Positions 5,357-9,180 of a DNA stretch of 64,000 nucleotides are shown piece after piece. The notes beneath the pieces are model-generated. The model had not been told where the DNA came from, did no database searches, and saw only the letters and a program-made list of their open reading frames with translations. Each line of letters opens with the position of its first letter. Position 1 is the first letter of the stretch. Position numbers and translations under genes: made by a program. Source of the stretch: a virus; IMG/VR virus record IMGVR_UViG_3300007735_000786, positions 8,752 through 72,751 of that record; one strand, written 5' to 3'.

Positions 5357-5908
5357 ATGTATACCCCCGGTCCTCAAGCTGTACCACAGGTTCAAACCCC
5401 TCCTGTTCAAGAGGTAACGCAACCACAAGCTAAGATCAAAGCACCTAGTAAATCTAAGGGTGGGGATGTTGGTTCTTTTATTCAGCAGTTAATTTCATTA
5501 ATGGCTTATGTGCACCAGCTTCAGGTGCAAAGTCACTTGATTCATCTGAATATAGAAGGGTCAAATTTTTTTGGCGTACACAAGTTCCTGAAACATCAGT
5601 ACGAAGCACACATCGAACAGTTTGATAAACTTGGGGAATTTATTCGCAGCATGGACTATCTGCTCCCTTCCTGCCACAACGGTTTGATGGAAGCAAGCCC
5701 AGAGTTCAAGCACTGCACCAGCTATAAAGCAACTGAGATGCTAGGTGTGTACTACAAAAATCTTGAGGAGTTGGGCATGAAGACTAAAAAACTAGAGCCT
5801 ATTGCTGCCAAGGTAGGTGCCATTGATATCCAGAATTACATGGCTGAGCTGTGTGGGGAAGCGTTTAAAGCGGCATGGATGATTAAAGCTACTCTTCGAA
5901 ACTCTTAA
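5357..5908 (+). CDS. dps: Dps/ferritin-like DNA protection protein
   Basis: HLIHLNIEGSNFFGVHKFL..QYE....FDKLGEFIR ferroxidase pattern and C-terminal KAAWMIKA. Confidence 0.85.
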   Translation: MYTPGPQAVPQVQTPPVQEVTQPQAKIKAPSKSKGGDVGSFIQQLISLMAYVHQLQVQSHLIHLNIEGSNFFGVHKFLKHQYEAHIEQFDKLGEFIRSMDYLLPSCHNGLMEASPEFKHCTSYKATEMLGVYYKNLEELGMKTKKLEPIAAKVGAIDIQNYMAELCGEAFKAAWMIKATLRNS

Positions 5909-6344
5909 GATACTTAATAGCTGAGTAAAATAAACTTACATCATCATTAAGCATTCCTAAAGAAGTATTACATTTTATACACAATAACCCTCTTACTTTT
6001 CCTGTTTTGTGGCAATGATCTACGGATAAAGTTTGTTTACTTGAACATTTTTTGTTGCAGATTTTACATACTTCTTTTTGTTTTTCAAGCATTTTGTAAT
6101 ATTCTTTAGCTGATAACCCATAACGTTTTATCCATTTTTCTTGTTTTTCCTTTTGATTTAGACCATGCCAATGCTTTAAACTTGCTTTGCGATATATTTC
6201 AGGATTTTTTTTGCGATATTCATTTGTTATTTTTGTATGACAAAGCTTGCAACGTCTTGCTCGTCCATCTTTTACCCTTGATTCTTTGTAAAAATCTTCA
6301 AGTAGTTTTAGTTCATTGCAGACACCGCAAACTTTTTTTGACAT
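5889..6344 (-). CDS. recombination endonuclease VII-family homing endonuclease
   Basis: CKIC...LSVDHCHKTGKVRGLLCIKCNTSLG plus an N-terminal zinc finger. Confidence 0.85.
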   Translation of the reverse strand: MSKKVCGVCNELKLLEDFYKESRVKDGRARRCKLCHTKITNEYRKKNPEIYRKASLKHWHGLNQKEKQEKWIKRYGLSAKEYYKMLEKQKEVCKICNKKCSSKQTLSVDHCHKTGKVRGLLCIKCNTSLGMLNDDVSLFYSAIKYLKSFEE

Positions 6345-6373: not shown

Positions 6374-6619
6374 TCATTGCCAGTGCTCAAGCCTATGACA
6401 GTTAGCACATAAAGGAATACATTTATCAATTTCTTTTTGGATGCGCTGCCAGGCGTATCCTCCATGTAAAAGAGCTGATACTTTGTTATCCTTTTCTTTT
6501 TCGTGATGAAAATCTAACAATCGATAATCATCTGTTCCACAGCGCCTGCAACACAACGTCTTTTTGTACTCCAGCATTTTTTCTTTATTTTTTTGAAGTG
6601 TGCTTTTGGTGGATGGCAC
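6374..6619 (-). CDS. small HNH nuclease
   Basis: CRRCG...LDFHH...KCIPLCANCHR. Confidence 0.75.
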   Translation of the reverse strand: MPSTKSTLQKNKEKMLEYKKTLCCRRCGTDDYRLLDFHHEKEKDNKVSALLHGGYAWQRIQKEIDKCIPLCANCHRLEHWQ

Positions 6620-6999: not shown

Positions 7000-7072
7000 T
7001 CGACCGTGCATGGAATCGAACCAGCTATCCAACTCCCTTGTCGGGGTGTCCTTACCAATGGACTAACGGTCG
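7000..7072 (-). ncRNA. tRNA-like element with aberrant anticodon arm (pseudo-tRNA or t-element)
   Basis: 7-bp acceptor stem CGACCGT/ACGGTCG+A, D arm GTCC-ATTGGTAA-GGAC, T loop TTCGATT; anticodon arm is not 5+7+5. Confidence 0.7.
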
Positions 7073-7074
7073 GT

Positions 7075-7290
7075 GCGCCCCCAGGTTTGTGCATCGTTGA
7101 GAGGCATAGGGGGTCAGCGAGCAGGAGACGATCAACTCCCCTGGCCTACCAAAGTAGGACTTAGTACGCAAACCAAGTGTTAGAGGACTTGGCTGCACCC
7201 TACCGGCAGAGCAGTAGGGGTGGTAGATGGACCAGGTGTGTCGCCTTCTGAGCTATGTGCTCAACGCGCACAGTGACCTGGCCTCTATCA
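7075..7290 (-). ncRNA. array of GC-rich RNA hairpins (putative ncRNA or ncRNA cluster)
   Basis: Six consecutive stems in a non-coding GC-rich tract directly downstream of an extended -10 promoter. Confidence 0.55.
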
Positions 7291-7296
7291 ATTAAT

Positions 7297-7305
7297 AGTA
7301 TAACA
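7297..7305 (-). promoter_or_regulatory. extended -10 promoter TGnTATACT
   Basis: Minus strand TGTTATACT, 6 nt before the first stem of the hairpin array. Confidence 0.55.
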
Positions 7306-7332
7306 AAAAAATCCCGGTTGCTCAAGCCGGGA
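7305..7332 (-). terminator. intrinsic terminator
   Basis: TCCCGGCTTG-AG-CAACCGGGA hairpin followed by T7 on the minus strand. Confidence 0.7.
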
Positions 7333-7382
7333 CATCAACTTTCGGAATCCCTCCTTAGGATTTTGAGCGGGTTAAGTATACC

Positions 7383-7553
7383 TTATTTTTTCTTGGCTGC
7401 AGCTTCTTTCTTCTTGGCAATCATTTCTTTAAACTTGTCGCGTGCTTCCATTTGACCTTTAGATGCACCACCCTTACCCTTGGGTGCAGCAGCTTCTTTA
7501 CCCTTAGCAGGCATTGCTTTACCCTTAGGAGCAACAGCTTTTTTCTTTTCCAT
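7383..7553 (-). CDS. small Lys/Ala-rich basic protein (56 aa)
   Basis: MEKKKAVAPKGKAMPAKGKEAAAPKGKGG...; not in the ORF track. Confidence 0.6.
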   Translation of the reverse strand: MEKKKAVAPKGKAMPAKGKEAAAPKGKGGASKGQMEARDKFKEMIAKKKEAAAKKK

Positions 7554-7582
7554 TGGAATATTTATTCTCTTTTAATTATAGG

Positions 7583-7792
7583 TTACTTCTTCTTTGTTGG
7601 TTTAGATTGTCTTGCTTTTTTACCAGCTTCTTTGGCGGCTTTTGTGTTAGGTACAAATTGCTTGCCGGACTTACTAGCTTCTCTCTTCTTGCGATCAGTT
7701 TTTTCACGTTCTTCTTTTGATAAAGAAGCCCATGCTTTTTCTGGTAAATACCGTTTGGTATATCCAGGTTGGATAGCTTTGTCAGCAGCCAT
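7583..7792 (-). CDS. C-terminal half of a DUF5872-like protein, as a separate gene
   Basis: RYLPEKAWASLS.EE...T..KK....GKQFVPNT; TAATG-coupled to the upstream gene. Confidence 0.7.
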   Translation of the reverse strand: MAADKAIQPGYTKRYLPEKAWASLSKEEREKTDRKKREASKSGKQFVPNTKAAKEAGKKARQSKPTKKK

Positions 7793-8100
7793 TACTTTGA
7801 CTCCTTATATTTTTTAGCCGCAGACTTAGCTTTACTACGTTTTTCATATTCATCTTTCGTGCCCCACTTCTCTTTTCCCCACCTCTCTAAATCTTTTTGC
7901 TTCTCACCTTTCCCCCCTTGGTATCCACCACCAGCTTTTTCATATTCTTGTGCAACAAGTTGAGCCTTACGTGCCGAAATTATTTAGCCTCACGGCTACG
8001 ACCATTCCCCTGGTTTACCACCACGACCTTCACGCATTACACGGTTTTTAATGCGTTCACGAAGATCGGGTTTGGTGTACTTGCTTTTGTCTTCAGTCAT
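7792..8100 (-). CDS. DUF5872-like protein interrupted by a 24-nt putative ribosomal bypass
   Basis: MTEDKSKYTKPDLRERIKNRVMREGRGGKPGEWS, then a 24-nt insert with stops, then ARKAQLVAQEYEKAGGGY...; removing the insert restores GKPGEWSARKAQ (94 aa). Confidence 0.75.
7975..8001 (-). other. candidate translational bypass element (UCG take-off, UAG hairpin, UCG landing)
   Basis: TCG TAGCC-GTGA-GGCTA AATAATT TCG GCA. Confidence 0.65.
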
Positions 8101-8226
8101 AACTTCCTCGCTCTTTAAGATAAGTAACTGCGTTTGTCAATACATCTATATTATCACCAAACAAACCCAGGGCCCTGTTGCATCACGTAATTCCGGCTTA
8201 GTATATTTGTTATCTTCTTGAGCCAT
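8093..8226 (-). pseudogene. deletion scar: duplicated DUF5872 5' end fused to the 3' end of an EndoVII endonuclease
   Basis: 8226-8185 reads MAQEDNKYTKPELR; 8182-8093 reads CNRALGLFGDNIDVLTNAVTYLKERGSYD*, similar to the C-terminus of the intact EndoVII at 5889. Confidence 0.7.
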
Positions 8227-8339
8227 TACGTTCTTGTTTTTGTTCCTTTAATATTTTATCCCACTTACACGGACGCAAGAACTTATCCCAGTCTTTTCCT
8301 GGGTCTGGGATTTTTTCTTCTAGTTCTAAAAAGAACTTT

Positions 8340-8558
8340 TCAAATCTTTCCGATTCGGAAGGCAACTGTATCGTCATCTTTATCTTTAAGTTTTTGCATA
8401 ATGTCATTCATCTGATCCAGGGTGTCGATTCGACAGATGAGTTCAGAGATAGCACTGACAATTATGGGATGTTCGGTGCGTGCAGCAAAGGCTAGTGCCT
8501 CACGTAAATGAGAGACTGATTCATCTAGTGAACCTTTGACTTGACTGGAGAGTGCCAT
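8340..8558 (-). CDS. hypothetical cyanophage protein
   Basis: MALS.QV..SL.E..SHLREALAFAARTEHP motif. Confidence 0.65.
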   Translation of the reverse strand: MALSSQVKGSLDESVSHLREALAFAARTEHPIIVSAISELICRIDTLDQMNDIMQKLKDKDDDTVAFRIGKI

Positions 8559-8589
8559 GATTGGAATTTATGGTATTTCTAGTATAGGT

Positions 8590-9180
8590 CTAACACCAAA
8601 TCCAACCAACTTGATAGGAATCAAAGTACGGATCTACGCCTAGTGCTTCCATTAATTCATGTACCAAGCGTCCTTTCCCATGGCGTTTACTGTCGGCTGC
8701 TCTAATATTGTCATCAACAACAATTAAAGTACCTGGACCCAAGAGGTTGTAGCCTGCAAACAGTTCCTTTAGATGATGGGATGCTGGTGCCCAATCGTTA
8801 TTCCAGTCGGTAATGTTGTAGGAATCTAGGTATAGGAGGTCTATTGGACCAAAGAGGGTGTCTAGTGTTTCAACGGAATCACCTTCTATTACCTTGGCAT
8901 GTTTGGTGTTCTTACGAGCCAAGGCGCAAGCCGCTGGATCGTTATCAATTGAAATTAATTTTCCAGTGCCACGGATGTCGATGTAGTTGTCAAAGAGAAG
9001 GGTGGAGCACCCATCGCCTGTGTAGTTGTTTTCTTCTCTGTAGGTACCGGTCTCTACGATTAGTGGTTCTTTAGAGGCATCTAGGTATTGAAAGATTTTT
9101 TCAAAGGTTGATTGCCTGGCACCAAGACGTGTTTTAATGGGATCGAAGTAGTCATTCCAAGTGGTTTGAGTTGATTTCAT
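8590..9180 (-). CDS. class I SAM-dependent methyltransferase
   Basis: IVETGT, SIDND, GDSVE, DLLYLDS and IVVDD motifs. Confidence 0.8.
   Translation of the reverse strand: MKSTQTTWNDYFDPIKTRLGARQSTFEKIFQYLDASKEPLIVETGTYREENNYTGDGCSTLLFDNYIDIRGTGKLISIDNDPAACALARKNTKHAKVIEGDSVETLDTLFGPIDLLYLDSYNITDWNNDWAPASHHLKELFAGYNLLGPGTLIVVDDNIRAADSKRHGKGRLVHELMEALGVDPYFDSYQVGWIWC

What the first reader, a model, noticed from the sequence alone, without database searches (positions are those of the whole stretch)
8093..8226. Homing-endonuclease scar and duplicated gene start next to the hop: a mobA/gene 60-like mobile cassette
Seen: just upstream of the bypass gene is a second, diverged copy of its 5' end (MAQEDNKYTKPELR versus MTEDKSKYTKPDLR). 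It is fused out of frame to the last 29 codons of an EndoVII-type nuclease (CNRALGLFGDNIDVLTNAVTYLKE; compare CNTSLGMLNDDVSLFYSAIKYLK at 5889), whose stop overlaps the new ATG. Known: in T4-like phages the mobA endonuclease and the 50-nt gene 60 bypass form one mobile cassette, the insert protecting against cleavage. Inference: an EndoVII endonuclease invaded this gene, supplied a replacement 5' end carrying the 24-nt hop that disrupts its own target at the conserved WSARK codons, and was later deleted. This would be an independent origin of an endonuclease-plus-hop element.
Basis: partly seen in the sequence, partly recalled or inferred. Interest (0 to 1): 0.88.

Follow-up and report, generated by a model that had tools for sequence, protein, structure and literature searches.

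The report
Decayed homing-nuclease cassette beside ribosome-hop gap
This stretch is the leftover of a selfish nuclease gene that once invaded a small phage gene, bringing a spare gene start and a 24-base stop-filled gap; intact copies in related lake phages show the three parts travel as one mobile unit, much like the T4 mobA/gene 60 element.

Summary
Observation confirmed; interpretation supported except for the untested biochemistry.

**What the window holds (minus strand)**
- An old gene start of 14 codons (8226-8185).
- A deletion joint at 8184/8183.
- The last 29 codons of an Endo VII-motif nuclease (8182-8096, stop 8095-8093).
- A new ATG at 8100, overlapping the nuclease tail by 8 nt.

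**What relatives show**
- Among 99 unique related loci, 43 carry a 23-33 nt stop-filled insert at the WS|ARK codons and 56 do not.
- A full nuclease gene (31) or a remnant (7, the window included) lies directly upstream of the insert-bearing genes. None lies upstream of the 56 insert-free genes.
- Where cassettes are 90-96% identical, the flanks are only 58-85% identical.
- The breaks are sharp: after Gln32 of the old copy and at the landing codon. The mobile unit is therefore linker + nuclease + new 34 codons + insert.

**The window's version**
- It lacks about 609 nt of that unit.
- Independent metagenome contigs bridge the joint, so it is not a misassembly.

**Not shown**
- Neither cleavage at the WSARK codons nor ribosome hopping has been shown directly.
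- Hopping is inferred from 15 of 43 inserts that shift the frame, intact downstream frames in all 43, and purifying selection.

This scan has already found the same cassette on this genome and on several others. New here is the decayed state. Interest 0.78.

The parts
8210..8407 (-). Upstream syntenic gene (65 aa); its 3' end overlaps the old start codon
   Evidence: ORF list. S-EIVl has the same arrangement, L001 2692-2901 overlapping 2888. tblastn finds relatives in 23 loci.
8185..8226 (-). Old (ancestral) 5' end of the DUF5872-like gene: ATG plus 13 codons. Homology to old copies runs to 8184. Now the head of a 26-codon dead-end ORF (8226-8146).
   Evidence: blastn to the old copies of L028, L105, L127 and L098 covers window 8231-8184. 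Old copies in 24 loci with a full nuclease run to Gln32 and then a stop.
8183..8184 (-). Deletion joint: old codon 15 joined to nuclease codon 174. About 609 nt are missing relative to L028, with at most 1-2 nt of shared letters.
   Evidence: Bridged by contigs of X4, X12 and X9.
8093..8182 (-). Remnant of the Endo VII-motif homing nuclease: last 29 codons plus stop TGA 8095-8093. The catalytic DHxH and Arg are gone. It holds the GAGGA ribosome-binding site (8109-8105) of the new start.
   Evidence: Pfam PF02945, E 1.3e-3, positions 59-81 of 82. 28 of 28 identical to the L028 nuclease. Motif read against Fang 2018.
7999..8100 (-). New, cassette-borne 5' end of the gene: 34 codons ending GEWS, with take-off codon TCG at 8001-7999
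   Evidence: Residue -2 is Glu in 42 of 42 insert-bearing copies and Gln in 56 of 56 insert-free copies. pN/pS 0.26.
7975..7998 (-). 24-nt insert at the 3' end of the cassette: TAG (7998-7996), hairpin TAGCC-GTGA-GGCTA (7998-7985), A/T spacer (7984-7978), landing TCG (7977-7975)
7792..7974 (-). Resident 3' part of the gene (ARKAQ... to TAA 7794-7792). It has no in-frame ATG, GTG or TTG of its own.

Best explanation
8093-8226 is the wreck of a mobile homing-endonuclease cassette.

Intact form (about 765 nt, seen in relatives). It sits inside a small DUF5872-like phage gene, between Gln32 and Ala35. It consists of:
- a stop plus a 38-nt linker;
- a 202-aa Endo VII-motif (F-CphI-type) nuclease gene;
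- overlapping that gene's last 8 nt, a replacement copy of the gene's first 34 codons;
- a 23-33 nt stop-filled insert that ends at a Ser codon matching the take-off Ser codon.

Shown here:
- The cassette moves between diverged phage genomes as one unit with sharp ends.
- The nuclease decays repeatedly while the new start and the insert stay.
- In this window a single non-homologous deletion of about 609 nt removed old codons 15-32, the linker and nuclease codons 1-173.
- What remains is a 14-codon old start fused out of frame to a 29-codon nuclease tail. That tail still provides the ribosome-binding site for the new start.

Inferred, with my odds:
- The nuclease cuts cassette-free alleles at or near the conserved GQWSARK codons, and spread is by break repair (about 0.6).
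- The insert spoils that site and so protects carriers (about 0.55).
- Ribosomes hop from TCG to TCG over the insert, so the gene still works (about 0.7).

The confidence given (0.85) is for the shown part: a decayed, mobile nuclease cassette whose 3' end is the insert.
For: Anatomy.

Intact relatives.

Census of 99 unique loci:
- 43 carry an insert and 56 do not.
- Of the 43, 31 have a full nuclease, 7 a remnant, 2 are cut by a contig end and 3 have none.
- 0 of the 56 insert-free loci have a nuclease or an old copy upstream.

Nuclease gene: all 31 full copies are open, carry CxxC..DHxH..R..CxxCN, and overlap the new ATG by 8 nt. Pfam PF02945 scores 80.2 and 78.1 bits for the two nuclease lineages.

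Mobility:
- Over 231 pairs of 22 loci, mean identity is 0.80 in the cassette, 0.64 in the old copy and 0.66 in the C part.
- Of the 7 pairs with cassette identity of 0.93 or more, 6 have an old copy below 0.8.
- In 7 near-identical cassettes, mismatches stop exactly after CAG (Gln32) and resume 5 nt after the start of the landing TCG.

Decay: the seven remnants end at different points (nuclease residues 142, 161, 168, 173, 174, 182, 184), so they are independent deletions. All keep at least 19 tail codons.

Gene still under selection: the C-part frame is intact in all 43 (one of them cut at the locus end after 59 open codons). pN/pS is 0.26 (new N part) and 0.17 (C part), against 0.18 and 0.16 in insert-free alleles.

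Hop:
- Insert lengths are 23, 24, 27, 28, 29 and 33 nt; 15 of 43 are not multiples of 3.
- The landing codon is TCG in 41 and TCT in 2. It was not part of the search pattern.
- Hairpin loops are always GNRA.
- The window's C part has no in-frame canonical start codon.

Not an artefact: contigs of X4, X12 and X9, from three studies, bridge the joint.

Precedent: the MobA element ends at its landing codon, carries a replacement homologous region, overlaps the downstream ORF out of frame, and loses its nuclease while keeping the gap. This is from Manning and Atkins, bioRxiv 10.1101/2022.08.31.505936, sections 6 and 12.
Against: - No enzyme assay exists. The cut site, and whether the insert protects, are inferred from the insertion site alone.
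- No protein or RNA evidence for hopping.
- Over 61 nt the hairpin region folds no better than shuffles (z -0.37), although the centroid keeps the 5-bp stem.
- L163 has a full nuclease and a 24-nt insert but no hairpin.
- 19 of 43 loci have an in-frame start within 10 codons after the landing codon (an ATG at +6 in 16 of them, GTG at +7 in 3), so separate initiation is possible there.
- 7 of 31 unique loci with a full nuclease lack the old copy (for L110 the upstream DNA is cut off). 3 insert-bearing loci have no nuclease at all. The order of events is therefore unresolved: intergenic nuclease first, or in-gene insertion first.
- Ascertainment: the pattern search fixed TGGTCGTAGCC..GGCTA, so conservation of the take-off codon and stem is partly built in.
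- All loci are metagenomic contigs, and some may be one population.
- The target gene reaches only 21.3 bits against DUF5872 (cut-off 27.5). Its function is unknown.
Confidence: 0.85

Rival explanations
1. The cassette is real and decayed, but there is no hop. The insertion simply killed or split the gene. The downstream part is either unexpressed or made from its own start, and it looks conserved only because insertions are recent.
For: No direct evidence of bypass exists. 19 of 43 loci have an in-frame start within 10 codons after the landing codon (an ATG at +6 in 16 of them, GTG at +7 in 3). The C part comes from the recipient genome, so part of its synonymous divergence predates insertion.
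Against: - The nuclease has had time to decay by 7 different deletions, yet no N or C part is broken in 43 loci.
- The cassette-borne N part has pN/pS 0.26 across cassettes that are about 20% diverged.
- The window and 8 other loci have no in-frame canonical start in the C part at all.
- The landing codon stays TCG in 41 of 43, while insert-free alleles use mostly TCT, TCA or AGY.
- All deletions keep the ribosome-binding site of the new start.
Confidence: 0.2
2. The nuclease is only a neighbour. It is a free-standing homing gene that targets some other nearby site. The insert is an unrelated small mobile or slippage-derived element that hitch-hikes by linkage.
For: Free-standing phage homing nucleases often cut at a distance from their own gene (recalled, no call). 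6 unique loci with upstream DNA have the nuclease between genes with no old copy; a seventh, L110, is cut upstream. 3 loci have the insert with no nuclease. Manning and Atkins note that the T4-type bypass cassette is found with other nuclease families.
Against: - Two nuclease lineages only about 50% identical both sit next to inserts.
- All 39 close homologues with downstream DNA do so.
- The cassette boundary coincides with the end of the insert to within about 5 nt, and with Gln32 on the other side. So the insertion site and the insert are the same place.
- The 3 nuclease-free loci carry the cassette-type Glu at -2.
Confidence: 0.12
3. A local artefact or coincidence: a tandem duplication of the gene start, or an assembly chimera, with a chance nuclease-like frame.
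For: The window's remnant alone is weak: Pfam E 1.3e-3, below the cut-off. The duplicated stretch is only 14 codons.
Against: - 28 of 28 identity to an intact nuclease tail.
- The same order of parts in 24 unique loci with a full nuclease.
- The new copy is 84-88% identical in DNA to cassettes of other contigs, whereas the old copy matches resident-type alleles.
- Independent contigs from three studies bridge the joint.
Confidence: 0.01

Closest known systems
Phage T4 MobA / gene 60 element: an HNH homing nuclease plus a 50-nt translational bypass in the topoisomerase II large-subunit gene (Manning and Atkins 2022, bioRxiv 10.1101/2022.08.31.505936; abstract and sections 6 and 12 read). That paper cites Bonocora et al. 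as its ref. 19, which I did not read.
   Same: - One mobile unit made of nuclease, a replacement homologous coding stretch and a stop-laden gap.
- The unit ends at the landing codon, with a clean break at its 5' end.
- The nuclease ORF overlaps the downstream ORF out of frame: 8 nt here, 8-32 nt there.
- A stop follows the take-off codon directly, take-off and landing codons match, there is a stem-loop at the start of the gap, and the 3' part is A/U-rich.
- The nuclease is often pseudogenised or lost while the gap stays. T4's own mobA is annotated defective.
   Different: - Nuclease family: Endo VII motif (PF02945), not HNH MobA.
- No detectable similarity to the T4 39-mobA-60 region.
- Target: a 94-aa DUF5872-like gene, not Topo2L.
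- Gap of 23-33 nt, not 50.
- The hairpin follows the stop rather than holding the take-off codon.
- The site lies at codon 33, so the cassette brings a whole new gene start and leaves a 32-codon stub, instead of splitting the gene into two working ORFs with added tails.
- Hosts are S-EIVl-like freshwater phages.
- Bypass and cleavage are untested here.
F-CphI of cyanophage S-PM2 and 'collaborative homing' with the psbA group I intron; the DHHRN / Endo VII-motif homing endonuclease family (Fang et al. 2018, PMC6083498; abstract, Background and one Results section read)
   Same: - The same catalytic motif: CxxC, DHxH, R, CxxC-N.
- A free-standing nuclease next to a gene whose interruption is thought to prevent self-cleavage.
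- A cyanophage setting.
   Different: - The protective interruption there is a self-splicing intron of several hundred nt, removed at the RNA level. Here it is a 23-33 nt insert with no known splicing route.
- Sequence identity to deposited phage nucleases is below 40%.
- No enzyme assay here.
Ordinary decayed free-standing homing endonuclease genes in phage genomes
   Same: The window's 29-codon tail is a typical end state of the invasion, fixation and decay cycle. The window also holds other such genes: Endo VII type at 5889-6344 and HNH at 6374-6619.
   Different: This remnant is tied to a duplicated gene start and a stop-filled insert that outlive it. The tail is kept because it carries the translation signals of the replacement start.

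Membership tests
Endo VII-motif (DHHRN, F-CphI-type) homing endonucleases / Pfam PF02945 | Significant match to the Endonuclease_7 profile | tested here: met
   Intact relatives score 80.2 bits (L028) and 78.1 bits (L174) against a cut-off of 23.6. The window's remnant alone scores 19.0 bits, below the cut-off, and covers profile positions 59-81 only.
Endo VII-motif (DHHRN, F-CphI-type) homing endonucleases / Pfam PF02945 | Catalytic and zinc residues CX2-4C ... DH(D)H ... R ... CX2C-N (Fang 2018) | tested here: met
   31 of 31 unique full-length relatives carry the pattern, with no internal stop. In the window itself this is not met: only the last Cys and the Asn remain, so the remnant cannot be active.
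Endo VII-motif (DHHRN, F-CphI-type) homing endonucleases / Pfam PF02945 | Optional gene, present or absent between otherwise related genomes | tested here: met
   75 of 80 loci of the C-part route lack it and 4 have it. Sharp cassette ends sit within diverged flanks.
Endo VII-motif (DHHRN, F-CphI-type) homing endonucleases / Pfam PF02945 | Site-specific cleavage of the cassette-free allele | not testable with these tools
   Needs purified enzyme and DNA substrates.
MobA / gene 60-type nuclease-plus-bypass element | Nuclease homologous to MobA (HNH) and insertion in Topo2L | tested here: not met
   The nuclease is PF02945. The target is DUF5872-like. tblastn and blastn against T4 39-mobA-60 give only noise, best E 0.029 in gene 39. 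This is a weak test, because T4's mobA is itself defective.
MobA / gene 60-type nuclease-plus-bypass element | Gap is the 3' end of the mobile unit, preceded by an element-borne copy of the displaced coding region | tested here: met
MobA / gene 60-type nuclease-plus-bypass element | Matched take-off and landing codons, a stop right after take-off, a stem-loop, and a gap that need not keep the frame | tested here: met
   TCG/TCG in 41 of 43 and TCG/TCT in 2. TAG follows take-off in 43 of 43. A GNRA hairpin is present in 42 of 43. 15 of 43 inserts are not multiples of 3. Take-off, TAG and stem were partly fixed by the search pattern.
MobA / gene 60-type nuclease-plus-bypass element | Ribosomes shown to bypass the gap; gap shown to block the nuclease | not testable with these tools
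   No expression or cleavage data.
DUF5872 (PF19197), the target gene | Profile match above Pfam's gathering score | tested here: inconclusive
   21.3 bits for the uninterrupted S-EIVl homologue and 17.8 bits for the window's gene, against a cut-off of 27.5. I call it DUF5872-like only.

The most novel reading that the evidence does not exclude
This is a second, independently evolved lineage of 'homing nuclease plus programmed ribosome hop' elements. It is built from an Endo VII-motif nuclease and a 23-33 nt gap in a tiny conserved phage gene, and it is widespread in uncultured freshwater cyanophage-like viruses. The window shows the late stage: the nuclease has been deleted, but the hop and the imported gene start are kept by selection on the host gene. 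The hop would then be a self-sufficient recoding signal that outlives the selfish gene that brought it. It would also be the shortest natural bypass known in bacteria or phages.
Probability: 0.6. Interest if true: 0.88.

Novelty: new variant of a known kind. Interest (0 to 1): 0.78.

Why it matters
Programmed translational bypass in phages has rested on one family. Manning and Atkins (2022 preprint, section 12) state that the cassette 'remains unique', and that MobA elements sit only in Topo2L.

A second family with another nuclease, another gene and much shorter gaps of varying length would let the rules of hopping be tested on natural variants. The rules in question are the matched codons, the stop after take-off, the small GNRA hairpin, the A/U-rich spacer and the nascent peptide.

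It would also test the idea that a recoding signal can serve as the immunity device of a homing nuclease.

The window adds the decay end of the life cycle:
- Seven independent nuclease deletions all keep the hop, the new start and its ribosome-binding site.
- This is the strongest comparative argument available here that the interrupted gene still works.

I found no description of this cassette in the held literature. No deposited phage genome holds a nuclease more than 60% identical. No deposited phage other than insert-free S-EIVl matches this locus.

Tried and rejected
- **Tandem duplication or chance frame:** rejected.
- **Misassembly at 8182-8186:** rejected. Contigs of X4 (2812 nt), X12 (1251 nt) and X9 (527 nt) bridge it. 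The X3 contig starts at 8166, only 18 nt from the joint, and was not counted. These are assembled contigs, not raw reads.
- **Read-through or a simple frameshift across the insert:** rejected. There are three in-frame stops in the window, and 15 of 43 inserts shift the frame.
- **Separate initiation of the C part:** rejected for the window, which has no in-frame ATG, GTG or TTG. It stays open for the 19 loci with an in-frame start within 10 codons after the landing codon.
- **Microhomology-driven deletion:** only 1-2 shared nt at the joint. I call it non-homologous.
- **Promoter and terminator scan of 7300-8700:** nothing found.
- **RNA fold of 61 nt around the insert:** not better than shuffles. 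It neither supports nor excludes the small hairpin.
- **Identity profile over all 22 class-A loci:** only a modest step, about 0.72 to 0.80. The sharp ends showed only within sets of near-identical cassettes.
- **Not used:** The search for homologous proteins, the search of protein representatives, structure prediction, complex prediction, and the scans of metagenome contigs and genome contigs.
- **Supplements:** those of Manning and Atkins (clade tables) and of Fang 2018 were not seen. They could list further nuclease or gap combinations.
- **Limit of the census:** only the best 80 of 529 C-part relatives in viral contigs were fetched.
- **Rows dropped from counts:** L073 (N part cut off) was dropped. 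Five pattern hits outside any DUF5872-like gene (L101, L103, L120, L122, L130) are treated as chance hits. Loci identical over a 270-nt key were merged (171 rows to 100).
Full report
**Setting.** The window is part of a 72.7-kb IMG/VR virus record (CheckV 92% complete). Its only deposited relative at this locus is the freshwater Synechococcus phage S-EIVl, at 72% DNA identity over part of 7300-8620. All features below are on the minus strand.

**What is in the window.**
- A 65-aa gene (8407-8210) ends inside an ATG at 8226.
- That ATG opens MAQEDNKYTKPELR and then runs into a dead-end frame that stops at 8148-8146.
- After TGA 8185-8183 another frame reads 29 codons (8182-8096) and stops at TGA 8095-8093.
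  - This piece matches the last 23 positions of Pfam Endonuclease_7 (E 1.3e-3, below the cut-off).
  - It holds a GAGGA at 8109-8105, 4 nt before the ATG at 8100.
- From 8100 the gene starts again: MTEDKSKYTKPDLR... for 34 codons, to TCG at 8001-7999.
- Then come TAG, the hairpin TAGCC-GTGA-GGCTA, an A/T spacer and a second TCG (7977-7975).
- The frame then continues ARKAQ... to TAA 7794-7792.
The overlap is 8 nt, with the stop lying in codons 2-3 of the new gene.

**The uninterrupted form.** S-EIVl encodes a 94-aa homologue without any interruption. Its ATG overlaps the end of the upstream gene exactly as the window's OLD start does (L001 2888-3172). The start at 8226 is therefore ancestral, and the start at 8100 is the newcomer. 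Both proteins score below the DUF5872 gathering score (21.3 and 17.8 bits against 27.5), so I call the gene DUF5872-like.

**Intact relatives.** I fetched loci by three routes:
- with the C part of the gene (80 of 529 hits);
- with a 20-letter pattern of the insert (55 loci);
- with the intact nuclease found in L028 (47 loci).

After merging identical stretches there are 100 unique loci. Of these, 43 have an insert at the same codon (the window included), 56 do not, and one is cut.

Among the 43 insert-bearing loci:
- 31 have a full 202-aa (201 aa in the second lineage) nuclease gene directly upstream;
- 7 have a remnant (the window, L087, L089, L107, L111, L114, L128);
- 2 are cut by a contig end;
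- 3 have none (L099, L115, L134).

None of the 56 insert-free loci has a nuclease within 400 nt upstream, and none has a second gene start.

By route:
- C-part route: 75 with neither, 4 with both, 1 cut.
- Pattern route: of 50 true hits, 36 full, 8 remnant, 2 cut at the locus end, 3 none, 1 unknown. Five further hits are chance hits elsewhere.
- Nuclease route: all 39 homologues of 49% identity or more with downstream DNA adjoin an insert-bearing gene. One (L175) is cut. Seven distant Endo VII genes (31-45% identity) lie elsewhere.

All 31 full nuclease genes are open, carry CxxC..DHxH..R..CxxCN and overlap the new ATG by 8 nt. Two lineages about 50% identical to each other both score about 80 bits on PF02945. 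That motif is the one defined for F-CphI and the Endo VII-motif homing nucleases (Fang 2018, PMC6083498; abstract, Background and section 7 read).

**The cassette and its ends.**
- In 24 of the 31 loci, an old copy of the gene runs from its ATG to Gln32 and is followed at once by TGA or TAA. Then come a conserved 37-43 nt linker (38 nt in 18 of the 24), the nuclease, the new 34 codons and the insert.
- Over 231 pairs of 22 such loci, mean identity is 0.80 in the cassette, 0.64 in the old copy and 0.66 in the C part.
- Pairs with cassettes 92-96% identical have flanks of 58-85%.
- In seven near-identical cassettes the mismatches stop exactly after the Gln32 codon. They start again 5 nt after the first base of the landing TCG.
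- The mobile unit is therefore linker + nuclease + new 5' end + insert, about 765 nt in L028. Its insertion point is the GQ|WS|ARK stretch, which is invariant in all 56 insert-free alleles.
- The cassette-borne copy is distinct: Glu at -2 in 42 of 42, against Gln in 56 of 56 insert-free alleles and in the old copies.
- Seven loci with a full nuclease have no old copy: L046, L117, L125, L094, L132, L136, and L110, where the upstream DNA is cut off. There the nuclease simply lies between the upstream gene and the insert-bearing gene.
- I cannot say which arrangement came first.

**What happened in the window.**
- blastn against full cassettes places homology to old copies at 8231-8184, and homology to the nuclease tail from 8184/8183 downward.
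- About 609 nt of the L028-type cassette are missing: old codons 15-32, the linker and nuclease codons 1-173.
- The joint shares at most 1-2 nt between the two sides.
- The catalytic DHxH and Arg are gone.
- The genome's only other PF02945 gene (5889-6344) belongs to a different lineage: 29-35% identity to the cassette nucleases, 39% to the remnant over 23 residues.
- Contigs from three other studies bridge the joint and the insert without gaps. In X9, a second contig runs on from 8167 into a longer nuclease frame, so longer and deleted forms co-occur.
- The other six remnants end at nuclease residues 142, 161, 168, 173, 182 and 184. One (L128) is an internal deletion that keeps residues 1-20.
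- These are independent deletions. All keep at least 19 tail codons, the stretch that carries the ribosome-binding site and overlaps the new ATG.

**Does the interrupted gene still work?** This is inferred, not shown.
- In favour:
  - The C-part frame from the landing codon is intact in all 43 (one of them cut at the locus end after 59 open codons).
  - pN/pS is 0.26 for the new N part and 0.17 for the C part, against 0.18 and 0.16 in insert-free alleles.
  - Inserts are 23 (2 loci), 24 (13), 27 (14), 28 (7), 29 (6) and 33 nt (1), so 15 of 43 change the frame.
  - The landing codon was not part of my pattern. It is TCG in 41 and TCT in 2, while insert-free alleles mostly use other Ser codons.
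  - Hairpin loops vary but stay GNRA.
  - The window's C part has no in-frame ATG, GTG or TTG.
- Against, or open:
  - There are no expression data.
  - The 61-nt fold is not better than shuffles.
  - L163 lacks the hairpin.
  - 19 loci have an in-frame start soon after the landing codon.

**Comparison with what is known.** Manning and Atkins (bioRxiv 10.1101/2022.08.31.505936; abstract and sections 6 and 12 read) describe the MobA element.
- It is an HNH nuclease plus an element-borne homologous region plus the 50-nt gap.
- It has a clean 5' break, and the insert ends at or just after the landing codon.
- The downstream ORF overlaps the nuclease ORF out of frame.
- The nuclease is repeatedly pseudogenised or lost while the gap stays.
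- They report that the gap protects against MobA nicking (their ref. 19, not read by me).
- They also write that the bypass cassette 'remains unique' and that MobA elements are exclusively in Topo2L.

The present cassette has the same architecture and life cycle. It differs in nuclease family, target gene and gap length, and it shows no detectable similarity to the T4 39-mobA-60 region. It works like that element but is not a member of it. By nuclease family it belongs with F-CphI, whose 'collaborative homing' uses an intron as the protective interruption.

**In print or not.**
- Searches for mobA / gene 60 / bypass / homing endonuclease gave 4 papers.
- 'Translational bypassing' with cyanophage gave 1 paper, unrelated by its abstract.
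- DUF5872 gave 1 paper, on an algal virus.
- None describes this cassette by its title or abstract; only Manning and Atkins was read further.
- No deposited phage holds a nuclease more than 60% identical.

**Earlier notes of this scan.** They describe the same cassette on this genome (the adjoining hop finding) and on several other genomes. I reached the anatomy from my own calls before reading the latter, and they agree.

**Verdict.**
- The reading as a decayed nuclease-plus-hop cassette is supported by comparative evidence.
- Cleavage specificity, protection by the insert, and hopping remain to be tested.

Noticed in passing
window 7077-7113 (-): Rfam abiF RNA motif at 49.7 bits (gathering score 37), full length. 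It lies inside the GC-rich structured stretch 7000-7300 just downstream of the small-gene operon. ARAGORN finds no tRNA there, and the only tRNA-like hit is weak (tRNA-Sec model, 19.5 bits, E 0.88, at 7002-7071).
   Followed up: partly
window 5889-6344 (-) and 6374-6619 (-): Two further homing-type nuclease genes lie side by side: Endo VII type, 151 aa (PF02945, 85.9 bits), and a small HNH, 81 aa (weak, E 0.0066). They follow the Dps/ferritin-like gene. S-EIVl has a sulfate adenylyltransferase gene in this region instead. L029 carries a 63%-identical copy of the 151-aa gene about 1.3 kb downstream of its cassette.
   Followed up: partly
L028 2239-2265 and the same place in 23 other loci: The linker at the cassette's left end holds a conserved inverted repeat (7-bp arms around a 10-nt loop) just upstream of the nuclease ATG. 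It may control nuclease expression. It is deleted in the window.
   Followed up: no
L163 (insert), L087 and L139 (landing codon): L163 has a full nuclease and a 24-nt insert whose hairpin half is replaced by A/T-rich sequence. L087 and L139 land on TCT rather than TCG. These are natural variants useful for testing the hop.
   Followed up: no
L099, L115, L134 compared with L111, L132, L136: In a second phage group (upstream gene begins MRFA..., with an M23-like protein before it), the insert-bearing gene occurs in three states: with a second nuclease lineage, with a remnant plus old copy (L111), or with no nuclease at all. The nuclease-free copies keep the cassette-type Glu at -2. This suggests clean loss of the nuclease, possibly by recombination between the old and new gene starts.
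   Followed up: partly
window 7786 and below: In contigs of four other studies the sequence departs from the window right after the end of the DUF5872-like gene; all show the same loose end at 7786. So the small basic-protein genes at 7583-7792 and 7383-7553 are not shared by those near relatives.
   Followed up: no
window 8590-9180 (-): A 196-aa Methyltransf_24-type protein (E 1.5e-7), conserved in S-EIVl (L001 1749-2339). It is annotated there only as hypothetical.
   Followed up: no
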